Shown here one piece after another: positions 60,209 to 64,000 of a DNA stretch of 64,000 nt. Source of the DNA: a virus (lineage: Duplodnaviria; Caudoviricetes); IMG/VR virus record IMGVR_UViG_3300033121_002193, positions 1-64,000 of that record. The stretch is one strand, 5' to 3'. Numbering within the stretch: position 1 is the first letter of the stretch; the number at the start of each line of letters is the position of its first letter. Under the pieces are notes generated by a model. It saw nothing but the letters and a program-made list of their open reading frames with translations, was not told the DNA's origin and did not search any database. Both the position numbers and the translations under genes were made by a program.

Positions 60209-60487
60209 TTTATTTCTCTCTTTTTATTTTTAGGCTGGTTAATTAATGTTTAAAGTTACAATATTAAAGCTTCACCCATTCTTTGAATGTTCATTTAATT
60301 TTTGATTTTTCGTAGTACGTTTCAATTTTAGTTAAGGTTGTATTTGTCATTTCTCTTTTTTTTATTTCAGCGTTATTTATTTTATTAACTGCAAATTTTT
60401 GCAATCATAATTCACTATTGTTTATTCATTTATGATTGTATCATATCTATAGGATGAAATAAAGATTATTCTTGTGCAGGTAGTGGG

Positions 60488-61381
60488 TCAGTTTGAAATA
60501 ATTAATTTCTTTTTGTAATTTCCTCGTTTTTTAGGTTCTTTTCTGTTTTCCCATTCCTCAACAATGTTTGCAACGTCTTCAACAGACCAAAGCTTGTCTG
60601 TAACTCCAGCCGCCATAGCAGGAGTAATACGCAAAGTTTGATGAATTCTTACAAAGTTATAATGCATAAAATAAAGCGCCATTGAATAAGCGTGATTTTC
60701 TGCTTTTTTAGAAAATGCGTTGGTAAGACGAGTGTGCCGACGATTAGCCATACGTATATTTAAATTCTGACGTTCAATGTAGCTTGTAGATACGCCTTTT
60801 TCATCAGGGTTACCTGCAATAGAACGTTTGGTGCAGCCAGTACATTCAGCTGGACTGTACTTGCCCTTCATTGATTCAGTTGTATTGCCATACATTTTAA
60901 CTAACATTGCGTAATCAATATCAGCGCCAAAAGCGCCCTCAACTGCTTCAAGATAAGCTTTCAGTCCATCGCTGGTTAATTGAATACGAGAAGCCATACG
61001 ACCAGCTAAATCTTGCATAAATTCATTTGCATACTCAGCATCACGTCCACCTACTAACCAAGATGGAATCAATTTTGTTTCTGCATCCATGGCAATCCAT
61101 GTCCATATATCACCTGCGCCTTCTGGGGCTGCTTTAGCTTCAGCGACATTCTTTTGCTTGGCATAACAGAAAGCCCAGATCTCATCGACTTGAATGCGTT
61201 TACAATGCAGATTACGAAGTTTTTTATCTTGGTACTCTGTAACGGCTTGCCCTGCATCTACCATGAACTTAATGACAGTGTTCTTGCTGCAACCAGTTAA
61301 CCTAACAATGGAACGAATTGAATTGCCTTCGGCCATGAGAGCTAAGATTTGAACACGTTTGTCAGTAGCAAGCTTATTCAT
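60488..61381 (-). CDS. IS1-family DDE transposase (single ORF)
   Basis: N-terminal HTH (EGNSIRSIVRLTGCSKNTV), IQVDEIW, LTSDG, IERQNLNIRM..RR.TRLTNAFSKK. Confidence 0.92.
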   Translation of the reverse strand: MNKLATDKRVQILALMAEGNSIRSIVRLTGCSKNTVIKFMVDAGQAVTEYQDKKLRNLHCKRIQVDEIWAFCYAKQKNVAEAKAAPEGAGDIWTWIAMDAETKLIPSWLVGGRDAEYANEFMQDLAGRMASRIQLTSDGLKAYLEAVEGAFGADIDYAMLVKMYGNTTESMKGKYSPAECTGCTKRSIAGNPDEKGVSTSYIERQNLNIRMANRRHTRLTNAFSKKAENHAYSMALYFMHYNFVRIHQTLRITPAMAAGVTDKLWSVEDVANIVEEWENRKEPKKRGNYKKKLIISN

Positions 61382-61426
61382 ATTTATTCAATATGACTTT
61401 TTATGCTTAACGTCAAGCATTAAGAG

Positions 61427-62890
61427 CTATTCATTGGTATTGAGTTGCTCCTGAATCCATTTAGTAGCTGTTTCTTCATCCTGTTCAATTGCTATTTCAA
61501 CAGCTCGTTTGGCTACATTGAGTAATCGCTTACTTTTAACTTTAAGAGCAAAGCTTTCTTCTATTAATACGGAAATTTGACGTTGTTTGTCATAGTCAAT
61601 CAACGGAATAATTAAATCTTTGAGTGTTTCTTGATTCAATCGCTGTTGAACGGAACCTCTGGCCAATCTGTCAATCATTTCGAAGAAAAATTTGCTATTA
61701 AATAGCAGGGTATAAACACTCGGGATATAGTAATCGGGGAGGTAAAAGCACAAAACATTGTCTGAATAAATCGCCCCATTTAGTTCGTCTCTTATTTCAC
61801 CAAAAACTCCTAAAGAACCTACTCGCGCAGTTATTATCCCCCCTTTTTTTGCCATACGAACGAAATTTTTCTTTTTGACGTAATAGTTATCGTCAAACTC
61901 TATTTGGCCACATTTAATGTTGGTACTTCTTATATAAAACGTTAGTCCCTCAATTTCATTTTTTCTGAAGTATTCCGGCGAATACTCTCCGGTATCAATA
62001 TGAATGATAAGATTAGCCAAAGAATCCCATCGATTGTGATGTTTAATGTGGCTCTCAATATCATGATATTTTTTCTGGTAATACTCTGCATCTAATCTGC
62101 CTGTAAGCATGAAAGAATCTTTAAAACTTTTAATGTTTACAGGAGATGTGCTGGGTTCAAAATCATTTAAACCAATCGTTTCGAGCAAAAGGGTTTCAGC
62201 AGAATTATATAATGCTTTGCTTTCAGTTAGCTTATCTTGCGCTTTGTAAAAAGATTTTTCTATTTCTTTTTGAAAACCTTCGGAATATGTAGGAATAATC
62301 ACAGTTTTTAAATCGTCAAGATTTAAACCCTTTTGAATTGCTCCTCTTTCTTTTCTTATTAATAATTCACGACCATATTTACAATTAAGAAAAGTTAATA
62401 TGTAAACTGGATTGATTTTAGAAATTCTTATAACCGTACTTTTACAACTAAAAATAGCAGGTAAATCTTTAGTTTGAACAATACAAGCATTTCCAAGTGT
62501 CCCAACTACTGAAACTAAAATATCTTTTTCTTTAAGAGCATATTTTTTTAATCTTTCATAATCGTCAAATGGAACAAATCTATTCTCACCGTCTTTTAAT
62601 ATAAAAGGCTTTACATCTTGGCCTCTTACGTATCGATATTCTCCATTTTCGACATAATTTTCAGTGTCAAAAGCTGAACCAAAAGGACCAATTAAGAAGT
62701 TGGCAACACTATTAAGTGCCGTATAGTTATTCTTGCAAACTTGTTTCTCGAAAGACAGTAGATGCTTCCTATAATACTCACTATCTATCCTTCCACTATA
62801 TTCTAAATCTGATTTTAAAATTTCTATTATCTCAAGCCCTTCTAACAAAGCTTTATATTTAGCTTCGTTAGAAGGGCTTAGACGAAAAAA
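61427..62890 (-). CDS. R-M specificity (HsdS-like, two TRDs) domain, probably translated as a -1 frameshift fusion
   Basis: RIDSEYY and RLDAEYY repeats, GAIQKGLN / GSVQQRLN; frame open from the slippery site at 62884-62890; only TTG 62848 as independent start, no RBS, buried in a hairpin. Confidence 0.8.
   Translation of the reverse strand, partial: FFRLSPSNEAKYKALLEGLEIIEILKSDLEYSGRIDSEYYRKHLLSFEKQVCKNNYTALNSVANFLIGPFGSAFDTENYVENGEYRYVRGQDVKPFILKDGENRFVPFDDYERLKKYALKEKDILVSVVGTLGNACIVQTKDLPAIFSCKSTVIRISKINPVYILTFLNCKYGRELLIRKERGAIQKGLNLDDLKTVIIPTYSEGFQKEIEKSFYKAQDKLTESKALYNSAETLLLETIGLNDFEPSTSPVNIKSFKDSFMLTGRLDAEYYQKKYHDIESHIKHHNRWDSLANLIIHIDTGEYSPEYFRKNEIEGLTFYIRSTNIKCGQIEFDDNYYVKKKNFVRMAKKGGIITARVGSLGVFGEIRDELNGAIYSDNVLCFYLPDYYIPSVYTLLFNSKFFFEMIDRLARGSVQQRLNQETLKDLIIPLIDYDKQRQISVLIEESFALKVKSKRLLNVAKRAVEIAIEQDEETATKWIQEQLNTNE
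62834..62890 (-). promoter_or_regulatory. Candidate programmed -1 ribosomal frameshift signal
   Basis: T_TTT_TTC in MTase frame, 4-nt spacer, then 19-bp stem AAGCCCUUCUAACGAAGCU / AGCUUUGUUAGAAGGGCUU with 8-nt loop. Confidence 0.75.
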
Positions 62891-64000
62891 CTGAATTTTT
62901 CCTTTTTAGCAAATTCGGCAAAAGCTTCGGCAATACCGTCCTTTGTTAGTCCATCGTGATTAAAAAGATCGTGCTTAACTATTAAATGCCCGTGGGTATC
63001 TAACAGGTATTCGTCCAAAATTTGTGGCGTTGCTTCGTAATGGTCAAATGGTACGGCAACTAACGTAACATTATTTTCTTTTTCGGTCGATTTTGAAAAA
63101 TCATTTTTACGGACAAATATTTTTTCACCGCTGTTGTCCTTACTTGACTCTTGCATGGTGGCAAAAAAAATAGGATAATCATCTACCTTTGGGCAAAGCT
63201 TATCGTCCCACTTTTGCACGAACAATACACTTGTTTTAGTTCCGGTATGGGGCTTAAAAACATTTCCGTGCAAGCCCACCACTGCTAATATGCGGCATCG
63301 TTCTGCAATGAAATCACGTATTTGTTTGTCGCCGCTGTTGTTGAAACGACCTTGAGGCAAAACAAGAGCCATGCGCCCACCAGGTTTTAAGAAACTTAAA
63401 TTGCGTTCAATAAATAAGATATCACGGCCCAAAGCACTTTGATATTTTCCGCTTATTTTTTTACCAAGTTCATACTTTGCTATCATGCGCGGTTCTTTGA
63501 TATCACCAGCAAAAGGCGGATTAGCCATTACAACATCAAAGCCAAAATCTCGATTATCATCTTTTGTTAAACGTAATTTACGTAGCTTTTTCCAACCCTC
63601 ACCATAAATATCTAACCAATTTTCGTCTTTTGTTTTTTCATCCCATCGTTCATAATCAAGAGTGTTCAAATGCAATACATTAGTTTGTCCATCACCAGCT
63701 ATCAAATTTAAAGTACGACCAACACGAACTGCTTTTTCATCAAAATCGATAGCAAAAACTTTGCTATTCACATAATCTTCGCAGCGAGCAGATTTTTTTT
63801 CTGTAGTATAAAGATGGTTTTGGCTGGTTCCTTCAATTTGTTGCCATACATGAAAAATTGCGTGCATAGGAAAACCACAACTTCCAGCGGCAGGATCAAT
63901 CAATGTTTCATTTTCTTTAGGATTAAGCATTTTGACGCACATGTCGATAACATAGCGTGGTGTAAAATATTGTCCTTTTTCACCTTTACTGGATTTGTTG
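62878..64000 (-). CDS. N6-adenine methyltransferase of Type I-like/IIB-IIG R-M system (5' end outside window)
   Basis: GQYFTPR (upstream of track start), DPAAGSCGF, ANPPF, LKPGGRMALVLP; frame open to window edge. Confidence 0.9.
   Translation of the reverse strand, partial: NKSSKGEKGQYFTPRYVIDMCVKMLNPKENETLIDPAAGSCGFPMHAIFHVWQQIEGTSQNHLYTTEKKSARCEDYVNSKVFAIDFDEKAVRVGRTLNLIAGDGQTNVLHLNTLDYERWDEKTKDENWLDIYGEGWKKLRKLRLTKDDNRDFGFDVVMANPPFAGDIKEPRMIAKYELGKKISGKYQSALGRDILFIERNLSFLKPGGRMALVLPQGRFNNSGDKQIRDFIAERCRILAVVGLHGNVFKPHTGTKTSVLFVQKWDDKLCPKVDDYPIFFATMQESSKDNSGEKIFVRKNDFSKSTEKENNVTLVAVPFDHYEATPQILDEYLLDTHGHLIVKHDLFNHDGLTKDGIAEAFAEFAKKEKFSFFV

What the first reader, a model, noticed from the sequence alone, without database searches (positions are those of the whole stretch)
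62834..62890. Probable programmed -1 frameshift joining the R-M methyltransferase to its specificity subunit
Seen on the minus strand: AGT TTT TTC GTC TAA ends the MTase. The heptamer T_TTT_TTC is in the correct phase, and the -1 frame is open (FRLSPSNEAKYKALLEGLE...) into the two-TRD S domain. Four nt downstream is a 19-bp hairpin (18 Watson-Crick pairs + 1 G-U, 8-nt loop) that also buries the only alternative start (TTG 62848, no RBS). Established: slippery heptamer plus nearby 3' stem is the canonical -1 frameshift signal, and Type I (M2S) and BcgI-type IIB (A2B) enzymes use two MTase-bearing chains per S. Inference: partial frameshifting would give short (R)M and long (R)M-S chains from one gene, setting 2:1 stoichiometry by recoding rather than this being a broken gene.
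Basis: partly seen in the sequence, partly recalled or inferred. Interest (0 to 1): 0.85.

Follow-up and report, generated by a model that had tools for sequence, protein, structure and literature searches.

The report
Frameshift signal joining restriction-enzyme subunits
The nuclease-methylase gene of a transposon-borne restriction system in this phage ends in a slippery site plus RNA hairpin, conserved across many bacterial phyla, that most likely makes some ribosomes slip back one base and fuse the enzyme to its DNA-recognition subunit, so one message would yield both chains the enzyme needs.

Summary
On the minus strand a 685-aa nuclease-methyltransferase (RM) gene ends AGT TTT TTC GTC TAA. 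The heptamer T_TTT_TTC is in phase. A 19-bp hairpin starts 4 nt later. The -1 frame runs for 485 codons through a two-TRD specificity (S) domain that has no start codon before its conserved N-terminus.

It is not an assembly error: contigs from four runs of three other studies show the same T6.

It is not a broken gene. Of 106 related loci, 86 have an in-phase T_TTT_TTY, G_GGA_AAR or C_CCT_TTT heptamer, a nearby zero-frame stop, a hairpin 5-6 nt downstream and an open -1 S frame. The hairpin shows compensatory changes at synonymous sites.

The strongest evidence is 11 relatives in which RM and S are fused in frame. They keep the heptamer and a hairpin, and their -1 frame stops at once, as in dnaX. 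Both layouts would therefore give RM and RM-S.

Best reading (about 0.85): a programmed -1 ribosomal frameshift supplies both chains of a BcgI/BsaXI-like (RM)2S enzyme. No frameshift product or efficiency has been measured.

I found no published description. This scan has noted the same signal before on other DNA.

The parts
62878..64000 (-). 3' part of the RM gene. The whole gene runs from contig 62878 to 64935 and encodes 685 aa: an N-terminal PD-(D/E)xK nuclease (HSDR_N_2) plus a gamma-class N6-adenine methyltransferase with DPAAGSCGF and NPPF motifs.
62900..62904 (-). Shine-Dalgarno-like AAGGA, 9 nt upstream of the heptamer. It is a possible upstream stimulator, formed by the conserved Lys-Glu codons. 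It occurs in many but not all relatives.
62884..62890 (-). Slippery heptamer T_TTT_TTC in the zero-frame phase (Phe-Phe codons).
   Evidence: conserved in relatives:
62878..62880 (-). Zero-frame stop TAA, one codon after the heptamer. It ends the short RM chain.
62834..62879 (-). Stimulatory hairpin: 19 bp with an 8-nt loop (arms 62861-62879 and 62834-62852). The conserved core GCCC...GGGC starts 6 nt after the heptamer.
62846..62848 (-). TTG inside the 3' arm. It is the only candidate start in the first 200 codons of the -1 ORF. It codes a Leu of the conserved ALLEGLE motif, and that codon is TTA or CTG in some relatives.
61427..62890 (-). -1 frame reading from the heptamer through the specificity domain. 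It has two TRDs, each preceded by GR[IL]D[SA]EYY, and spans 485 codons after Phe-Phe. The predicted RM-S fusion is 1169 aa.

Best explanation
The junction is a programmed -1 ribosomal frameshift cassette: a Shine-Dalgarno-like AAGGA, the heptamer T_TTT_TTC, a 4-6 nt spacer and a 19-bp hairpin.

Ribosomes that read straight on stop one codon later and release the 685-aa nuclease-methyltransferase (RM). Ribosomes held by the hairpin with Phe-tRNAs on TTT TTC slip back one base. They continue ...SFF-RLSPSNEAKYK... through the two-TRD specificity domain and make a 1169-aa RM-S chain.

One RM plus one RM-S would give the two catalytic chains per specificity module that BcgI/BsaXI-type (Type IIB) enzymes use. 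S has no start codon of its own, so frameshifting is the only evident route to it.

Shown here: the signal, its conservation, its covariation and the mirrored layout in fused relatives. Inferred: that slipping occurs, that its efficiency is high (perhaps near one half), and that RM plus RM-S is the active assembly.
For: 1. The signal is present and far from chance.

2. The RM end is conserved. More than 100 homologues at 76-82% identity are nearly all 685-691 aa and end ...LSFF(x) or ...LSF[VA]GK(x).

3. In 106 loci from many phyla and from viral contigs, 86 have an in-phase heptamer, a zero-frame stop and an open -1 frame.
- Heptamers: T_TTT_TTT 49, G_GGA_AAG 24, T_TTT_TTC 8, G_GGA_AAA 4, C_CCT_TTT 1.
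- The zero-frame stop falls 0-1 codons after the heptamer in 83.
- The -1 frame is open for at least 400 aa in 77.
- All five heptamers belong to the classes found most efficient in E. coli (PMC4066793).

4. The selection acts on nucleotides, not on residues.
- The base before the heptamer is always T or G, while the residue varies (S/G/P/H, or V/P/A/W).
- GC-rich genes with 2 TTT against 32 TTC elsewhere still use TTT TTT at this site.

5. The hairpin behaves as a selected RNA structure.
- The alignment of 73 junctions is gapless, so the spacing is fixed.
- 86% of cells are paired, against 31-60% when the partners are slid.
- Pair 18-51 is UA 51, CG 18, UG 3, AU 1, and is never unpaired. Both of its columns are third codon positions (Pro and Glu).
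- Every one of the 73 folds at -16 to -36 kcal/mol.

6. From the first stem base onward, variability is three-periodic in the -1 frame, upstream of any possible start codon. That stretch therefore evolves as coding sequence.

7. The mirror layout.
- 11 in-frame RM-S fusions keep T_TTT_TTT, a 6-nt spacer and a 13-15 bp hairpin. One is on Picosynechococcus PCC 7002 plasmid pAQ6.
- In all 11 the next codon starts GA or AA, so the -1 frame reads TGA or TAA at once.

8. T6 is confirmed in four independent assemblies.

9. Plausibility from the literature.
- BsaXI is (RM)2S (PMC11997821).
- An engineered EcoKI M-S fusion is active in vitro only when free M is added (PMC3510504).
Against: - No protein, ribosome-profiling or reporter data exist for any member. 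The efficiency is unknown.
- The sequences are related, so counts of loci overstate the number of independent events.
- Part of the stem conservation could come from the conserved peptide SPF[ND]E...LLEGL. Only the lower 10 bp are recovered by RNAalifold, and the upper stem shifts register among relatives.
- About 12 of the loci (TGA stops) have ATG, GTG or TTG overlapping the stop in the S frame. Termination-reinitiation could add free S there.
- Four loci (L007, L026, L032, L035) have shorter T runs that put an intact S ORF in the +1 frame. The -1 model does not explain them.
- A 4-nt spacer, counted to the first pair of this window's stem, is at the short end of the usual 5-8 nt.
Confidence: 0.85

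Rival explanations
1. RM and S are two ordinary genes. S is started on its own, either at the TTG inside the hairpin or by termination-reinitiation after the RM stop. The hairpin only throttles S translation or stabilises the mRNA.
For: - Gene callers annotate S this way.
- A minority of relatives have ATGA, GTGA or TTGA overlaps of the stop with a possible start.
- EcoKI hsdM/hsdS are translationally coupled (PMC3510504).
Against: - In the window and in about 60 of 73 aligned relatives, the S-frame codon over the TAA/TAG stop is NTA, which is not a start.
- The TTG positions are not conserved as TTG; TTA, CTG, ATA and GTG also occur.
- Ten codons upstream of the TTG evolve as coding sequence in the S frame. 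They are part of the protein in the in-frame fusions.
- This reading explains neither the in-phase heptamers of three kinds nor their nucleotide-level conservation. It also does not explain the -1 stop kept in the fused forms.
Confidence: 0.07
2. The shift happens in the mRNA, not on the ribosome. RNA polymerase slips on the T run and adds one U, as in some IS elements and in Thermus dnaX.
For: - T7 runs dominate: 60 of the 97 loci with layout A or B (49 A, 11 B).
- UUUUUUU is under-represented in E. coli genes, partly because of transcriptional slippage (PMC4066793).
Against: - 29 loci use G_GGA_AAR or C_CCT_TTT, which have no homopolymer long enough to slip, at the same position with the same hairpin.
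- The window itself has only T6.
- A hairpin at a fixed 5-6 nt spacing is a ribosomal stimulator, not a polymerase one.
- Contigs from two RNA libraries show T6, but contigs hide minority forms and DNA carry-over is possible.
Confidence: 0.05
3. It is damage or a switch: a fused RM-S gene broken by a 1-nt deletion, an assembly error, or a homopolymer phase-variation site.
For: - T7 instead of T6 would fuse the frames in this window.
- In-frame fusions exist in relatives.
- Four loci have deviant tract lengths.
Against: - T6 is identical in four assemblies from three studies.
- The same frame relation holds in 86 loci across phyla, with intact S ORFs.
- G_GGA_AAG sites are not mutable tracts.
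- The fused relatives differ by a base in the spacer, not in the tract, and they keep the heptamer and hairpin.
Confidence: 0.02

Closest known systems
E. coli dnaX tau/gamma programmed -1 frameshift (general knowledge; reviewed in PMC5009743, efficiency reference cited in PMC4066793)
   Same: - The cassette plan is the same: an upstream Shine-Dalgarno-like element, an X_XXY_YYZ heptamer, a short spacer and a stem-loop.
- Two N-terminally identical chains of one complex are made from one mRNA.
- The 11 fused relatives copy the dnaX polarity exactly: the -1 frame stops at once and gives the short chain.
   Different: - The window has the opposite polarity: the frameshift gives the long chain.
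- The heptamer is T_TTT_TTC rather than A_AAA_AAG.
- The gene family is a restriction-modification enzyme.
- Nothing has been measured.
Phage lambda G/GT tail-chaperone frameshift and IS3/IS911 OrfA-OrfAB frameshift (general knowledge; PMC4066793)
   Same: - A -1 slip near the end of the upstream ORF extends it into the downstream ORF, which has no start of its own.
- G_GGA_AAG, the lambda heptamer, is used by 24 relatives.
- IS911 uses a hairpin plus a Shine-Dalgarno-like stimulator.
   Different: Those systems make a minor fusion product (a few percent to about 15%). Here a near-equal ratio would be needed if RM plus RM-S is the active unit.
BcgI and BsaXI, Type IIB restriction-modification enzymes (PMC11997821; PMC3510504 introduction)
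   Same: - The RM chain has an N-terminal PD-(D/E)xK nuclease and a gamma-class N6A methyltransferase.
- A two-TRD S module is present and there is no ATP motor.
- BsaXI is the best solved-structure match (E = 2.6e-22) and is an (RM)2S heterotrimer.
   Different: - BsaXI was expressed from separate RM and S reading frames. I did not see BcgI's gene layout, but it is described as keeping S as a separate subunit.
- Here S has no start and would exist only as an extension of RM.
- Sequence similarity to BsaXI is limited to the methyltransferase core.
Engineered EcoKI HsdM-HsdS fusion ('Type IMS', PMC3510504)
   Same: - An M-S fusion is functional.
- It needs additional free M in vitro, which is the M plus M-S composition proposed here.
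- The C-terminus of M lies next to the N-terminus of S.
   Different: - The fusion is artificial.
- It is a Type I system with a separate HsdR motor.
- The natural genes are translationally coupled through an overlap, not by a frameshift.

Membership tests
-1 programmed ribosomal frameshift cassette | X_XXY_YYZ heptamer in the zero-frame phase | tested here: met
   T_TTT_TTC lies at 62884-62890 in phase. In-phase heptamers occur in 97 of 106 related loci.
-1 programmed ribosomal frameshift cassette | Stable RNA structure starting about 5-8 nt downstream | tested here: met
   The stem is 19 bp, with z = -6.7. The conserved core starts 6 nt after the heptamer in a gapless alignment of 73 junctions. 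All fold at -16 to -36 kcal/mol.
-1 programmed ribosomal frameshift cassette | Evolutionary conservation of the heptamer and structure beyond what the protein requires (synonymous-site constraint, compensatory changes) | tested here: met
   The X1 base is invariant while the residue varies. TTT is kept in TTC-preferring genes. Pair 18-51 covaries at two third codon positions, and 86% of cells are paired against 31-60% when slid.
-1 programmed ribosomal frameshift cassette | The -1 frame encodes a functional, conserved extension with no initiation of its own | tested here: met
   The extension is 485 codons with Methylase_S hits. Conservation is three-periodic before any start codon. The same residues lie inside the in-frame fusions.
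-1 programmed ribosomal frameshift cassette | A trans-frame protein is detected and its efficiency depends on the heptamer and the stem | not testable with these tools
   This needs a reporter assay, a western blot or mass spectrometry.
Type IIB (BcgI/BsaXI-like) restriction-modification enzyme | One chain joins a PD-(D/E)xK nuclease to an N6-adenine methyltransferase | tested here: met
   HSDR_N_2 matches at E = 2.9e-27 and N6_Mtase at E = 2.7e-33. The D...ELK and NPPF motifs are visible.
Type IIB (BcgI/BsaXI-like) restriction-modification enzyme | A specificity module with two TRDs, and no ATP-dependent motor subunit | tested here: met
   There are two Methylase_S stretches. No third gene is shared among 81 loci. 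The transposon holds only a transposase, S and RM.
Type IIB (BcgI/BsaXI-like) restriction-modification enzyme | Cuts on both sides of a bipartite site; (RM)2S assembly | not testable with these tools
   This is known for BsaXI (PMC11997821). No biochemistry exists for this family.
Type I restriction-modification system | A separate HsdR subunit with a helicase motor | tested here: not met
   No such gene lies in the element or in the flanks of relatives. PADLOC's label 'MTase_I' (1100 bits) is a name only.
MADS (methylation-associated defence system), MAD2/MAD5 | Scores above the NCBIfam equivalog cut-offs, with the other mad genes nearby | tested here: not met
   MAD2 scores 300 bits against a cut-off of 720. 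MAD5 scores 151 against 400. No further conserved neighbours were found.
Homopolymer phase-variation switch | Tract length differs among near-identical copies or reads | tested here: not met
   Four assemblies all show T6. Only contigs could be laid, not raw reads, so minority variants would be missed.

The most novel reading that the evidence does not exclude
The cassette may be a portable stoichiometry device tuned to roughly 50% slippage. At that efficiency both gene layouts give RM and RM-S at 1:1: stop in frame 0 with S in frame -1, or S in frame 0 with a stop in frame -1. That would explain why a single base in the spacer can flip the layout during evolution.

S needs no initiation signal of its own. 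The two-chain enzyme could therefore be expressed correctly after transfer between hosts with very different translation-start rules, such as Bacteroidota, Proteobacteria, Firmicutes, Cyanobacteria and their phages. That could be one reason why this 76-82% identical family is so widely spread. The active enzyme would be an (RM)(RM-S) heterodimer, a subunit composition not described for any restriction enzyme.
Probability: 0.35. Interest if true: 0.85.

Novelty: new variant of a known kind. Interest (0 to 1): 0.78.

Why it matters
Programmed frameshifting in bacteria is documented for few gene families, mainly dnaX, IS elements and phage tail chaperones. A case conserved across phyla in a defence enzyme would add a large family to that list, and one with natural examples of both polarities. 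That gives a built-in comparative test of how the product ratio is set.

For restriction-modification biology it would change three things:
- **Annotation.** S genes are currently given spurious TTG/ATG starts, or the pair is flagged as broken.
- **Cloning.** Expressing 'S' from its annotated start would fail.
- **Subunit composition.** The proposed RM plus RM-S differs from the RM plus S described for BcgI and BsaXI.

It also bears on how mobile defence genes stay expressible in unrelated hosts.

Tried and rejected
**Literature.** Nine full-text searches and five papers were read in part. None describes ribosomal frameshifting in a restriction-modification system. These include the large recoding review PMC5009743, the GeneTack survey PMC3711429, and PMC4066793 with its supplements. 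The library lacks most subscription journals and REBASE notes, so this is not proof of novelty.

**Control that failed.** I looked for stand-alone S proteins with their own Met before SPFNE (P0136, P0144), to ask whether the hairpin persists without a heptamer. Their DNA shows the same cassette, and the gene caller's 'M' is a TTG overlapping the TGA stop. No such control was found.

**MADS membership.** Rejected, because the scores are far below the cut-offs.

**Reads.** Only Logan contigs could be laid, not raw reads. Neither minority T7 transcripts nor expression level could be assessed. The presence of the stretch in two metatranscriptome libraries does not prove transcription.

**RNAalifold.** It recovered only the lower 10 bp of the stem. 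The upper stem pairs in shifted registers in GC-rich relatives, so I did not build a covariance model.

**Not run.** I ran no structure or complex prediction. RM-S binding is a textbook pair, and the natural fusions already show that a covalent link is tolerated.
Full report
**What is there**

The window is the first 64 kb of a 135,485-bp IMG/VR virus record. On the minus strand, an ORF that runs off the window continues to contig position 64935. It encodes a 685-aa protein with two parts:
- an N-terminal PD-(D/E)xK nuclease domain (HSDR_N_2, E = 2.9e-27; D...ELK visible);
- a gamma-class N6-adenine methyltransferase (N6_Mtase, E = 2.7e-33; DPAAGSCGF and NPPF motifs).

The gene ends AGT TTT TTC GTC TAA. 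The heptamer T_TTT_TTC (62884-62890) is in the phase needed for tandem -1 slippage.

Four bases later a hairpin begins. It has 19 pairs (18 Watson-Crick and one G-U) and an 8-nt loop, at 62834-62879. The 111-nt stretch around it folds at -39.9 kcal/mol, against -17.5 +/- 3.4 for shuffles (z = -6.7).

The -1 frame opens five codons before the heptamer and runs to 61427, through a specificity domain with two target-recognition domains. Its first ATG/GTG/TTG is the TTG at 62846-62848, inside the 3' arm. The next one is 180 codons further on.

**Not an error**

One extra T would fuse the frames, so tract length matters. Contigs from four public runs cover the junction without any difference or indel. 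They come from three studies other than the likely source. One has depth 70, and two are from metatranscriptome libraries. These are assemblies, not reads, so they cannot exclude minority forms.

**Not a broken gene: the RM end is conserved**

A search of 5.8 billion proteins gave thousands of homologues. The best 120 are 76-82% identical and nearly all are 685-691 aa. They end ...KEKLSFF(x) or ...KLSF[VA]GK(x).

I fetched 80 loci from species-representative genomes. They come from Bacteroidota, several classes of Proteobacteria, Firmicutes, Verrucomicrobiota, Chloroflexota and others. I added 13 viral contigs, 10 metagenome contigs and 2 plasmids.

Of 106 loci including the window, 86 share the window's layout:

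| Feature | Count among the 86 |
|---|---|
| T_TTT_TTT heptamer | 49 |
| G_GGA_AAG heptamer | 24 |
| T_TTT_TTC heptamer | 8 |
| G_GGA_AAA heptamer | 4 |
| C_CCT_TTT heptamer | 1 |
| Zero-frame stop 0 or 1 codon after the heptamer | 83 (the other three are 7-9 codons later) |
| -1 frame open for at least 400 aa | 77 (5 more are cut by contig ends) |

In E. coli these heptamers fall in the two most efficient classes, V_VVA_AAR and H_HHU_UUY (PMC4066793).

**The constraint is on nucleotides**

The base that completes the heptamer is the third base of the preceding codon. It is always T (AGT, GGT, CCT, CAT) or always G (GTG, CCG, GCG, TGG), although the residue varies.

In GC-rich genes that use TTT for only 6-20% of their other Phe codons, the site is still TTT TTT. 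An example is L063, with 2 TTT against 32 TTC. If codon choice were as elsewhere in each gene, the joint chance would be about 1e-12 for the T type. For GGA in the G type it would be about 1e-17. Relatedness inflates these figures, but the direction is clear.

**The hairpin**

The 73 distinct junctions align without a single gap, so the spacing from heptamer to stem is fixed. The conserved GCCC...GGGC core starts at base 14, six bases after the heptamer.

With the window's 19 pairs as the structure, 86% of cells are standard pairs. That compares with 31-60% when the 3' partners are slid by 1-3 columns, and no shuffle out of 500 reached the observed covariation score.
- Pair 18-51 is UA in 51 sequences, CG in 18, UG in 3 and AU in 1, and is never unpaired. 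Column 18 is the third base of a Pro codon and column 51 is the third base of a Glu codon in the -1 frame, so these are compensatory changes at synonymous sites.
- The Gly codon in the 3' arm is GGG in 72 of 73, and the Ser codon in the 5' arm is always AGC.

More distant relatives carry different but again complementary stems: GCCCATC/GATGGGC, GCCTCTCC/GGAGAGGC and GCTCC/GGAGC. Each of the 73 sequences folds at -16 to -36 kcal/mol. RNAalifold on its own recovers the lower 10 pairs. The upper stem varies in register.

**The stretch before any start codon is coding**

From the first stem base onward, column variability is three-periodic in the -1 frame. Mean entropies for codon positions 1, 2 and 3 over columns 13-42 are 0.78, 0.57 and 1.17. 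The six spacer bases vary at all positions.

The peptide SPF[ND]EA[KR]Y[KR]ALLEGLE therefore evolves as protein, although in most loci nothing can initiate upstream of it. Over a TAA or TAG stop the S-frame codon is NTA. The two Leu codons that gene callers use as TTG starts are TTA, CTG, ATA or GTG in some relatives.

**The mirror layout**

Two genomic loci (L021, L053) have RM and S fused in frame. A targeted protein search found about a dozen more fusions of 1080-1177 aa. I read the DNA of eight of them, and of the 1179-aa gene on plasmid pAQ6 of Picosynechococcus PCC 7002.

All 11 keep T_TTT_TTT in phase, a 6-nt spacer and a 13-15 bp hairpin. In all 11 the next codon begins GA or AA, so the -1 frame reads TTT TTT TGA or TAA and stops at once. 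This is the dnaX arrangement: normal reading gives the long chain and slipping gives the short one.

In one group the hairpin has an unrelated sequence and lies in a linker 12 residues longer. In another group it is the homologous stem, and the layout differs from that of frameshift-requiring relatives by one base in the spacer (L088 against L097).

A cassette kept in both polarities argues that what is selected is the production of both RM and RM-S. I regard this as the strongest evidence. It is also the part I did not see in the summaries of earlier notes from this scan.

**How it most likely works**

BsaXI is the best solved-structure match (E = 2.6e-22) and is an (RM)2S heterotrimer (PMC11997821). 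An engineered EcoKI M-S fusion is active in vivo. In vitro it needs added free M, and the C-terminus of M lies next to the N-terminus of S (PMC3510504).

One RM plus one RM-S would give the same composition. If the efficiency were near one half, both layouts would give the same 1:1 ratio. That is an inference, as is any role of the AAGGA nine bases upstream. The AAGGA is present in most T-type loci and in 8 of 11 fusions, but it is also simply Lys-Glu codons.

**Rivals**

- *Independent initiation or termination-reinitiation of S.* This cannot apply in the window, which has no start codon. It does not explain the heptamers or the fused forms. It may add free S in the roughly 12 loci where ATG, GTG or TTG overlaps a TGA stop.
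- *Transcriptional slippage.* It cannot serve the 29 loci with G_GGA_AAR or C_CCT_TTT.
- *Damage, assembly error or phase variation.* These are excluded.
- *Unexplained cases.* Three Bacteroidales loci with T5 (AGT TTT TCG TAA) and one with T6 put S in the +1 frame. Three of these S ORFs are intact at 488-495 aa, and the fourth is cut by the contig end.

**What family**

The system meets the architectural criteria of Type IIB (BcgI/BsaXI-like) enzymes. No motor subunit occurs in the element or as a shared neighbour in 81 loci.

It is not Type I, despite PADLOC's label. It is not MADS, because its scores are far below the cut-offs. Cleavage behaviour and assembly cannot be tested here.

**Context**

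The RM-S pair and a 297-aa weakly IS1-like transposase lie between perfect 20-bp inverted repeats, which are flanked by an 8-bp direct repeat. The system is therefore transposon cargo inserted in the phage genome.

**Novelty**

None of the papers searched describes a frameshift in a restriction-modification system. This scan has reported the same kind of signal repeatedly on other DNA, mostly in prophage-borne BcgI-like systems with A_AAA_AAG or G_GGA_AAG. Those are unchecked AI notes that agree with my reading, which I formed and recorded before reading them.

Noticed in passing
window 60471-64000, continuing to contig 65283 (L003:472-5284): The transposase, S and RM genes lie between perfect 20-nt inverted repeats (L003 480-499 and 5257-5276). 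The repeats are flanked by an 8-bp direct repeat CTTGTGCA. This is a 4.8-kb IS-like transposon with the restriction system as cargo, inserted in the phage genome. It bears out another first-reader note on this window.
   Followed up: yes
window 60488-61381 (-) and L003:8137-9198 (-): The 297-aa ORF just downstream of S has only sub-threshold HTH and DDE (IS1/IS240) hits. A clear IS1595-family transposase (E = 2.6e-41) lies 3.2 kb beyond the RM start, outside the window.
   Followed up: partly
L026, L032, L035 (Bacteroidales) and L007 (Methyloglobulus): These variants have a shorter T run (AGT TTT TCG TAA, or T6 before CTCTAAG). The hairpin is kept, but S lies in the +1 frame. Three of the S ORFs are intact (488-495 aa) and one is cut by the contig end; their TRDs are diverged. 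This could be a +1 slip on UUU_U, or recent inactivation. It remains unexplained.
   Followed up: partly
L059, L063, L071, L074, L083, L094, L096 (ATGA); L056 (GTGA); L046, L049, L107, L108 (TTGA): In loci with a TGA stop, the S-frame codon overlapping it is often a possible start. Translational coupling could therefore coexist with the frameshift signal there. Gene callers use these codons and print 'MS(S/R)PF...' as the S N-terminus.
   Followed up: partly
L105 (Picosynechococcus sp. PCC 7002 plasmid pAQ6, record 102358-105897): A model cyanobacterium carries the in-frame fused version: 1179 aa, with T_TTT_TTT, then TGA in the -1 frame, then a hairpin. A methylome paper reports an unassigned bipartite motif GGAN5CTTC in this strain (PMC12362590). 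The link between the two is only my guess.
   Followed up: partly
L106 (Klebsiella pneumoniae IncF plasmid NZ_LR890357.1): A conjugative clinical plasmid carries a 58%-identical RM with T_TTT_TTT, a GC-rich hairpin (the 114-nt stretch around it folds at -48 kcal/mol) and a zero-frame stop nine codons later, in the hairpin loop. RefSeq annotates S as a separate gene.
   Followed up: partly
P0125, P0152 (partial fused proteins): The linker that encodes the alternative hairpin (DLDLxGFKNLxGL...) is duplicated in tandem in two fused relatives.
   Followed up: no
L108 and proteins P0137-P0150: Some S chains reached through the same cassette are 690-780 aa and carry an extra C-terminal domain. Fic (PF02661) or PF20217 appears in the precomputed Pfam hits.
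   Followed up: no
window 62300-63500: Contigs assembled from two wastewater metatranscriptome libraries are identical to this stretch. One of them spans the RM/S junction (62733-63302). This is compatible with co-transcription but is no proof of it.
   Followed up: partly
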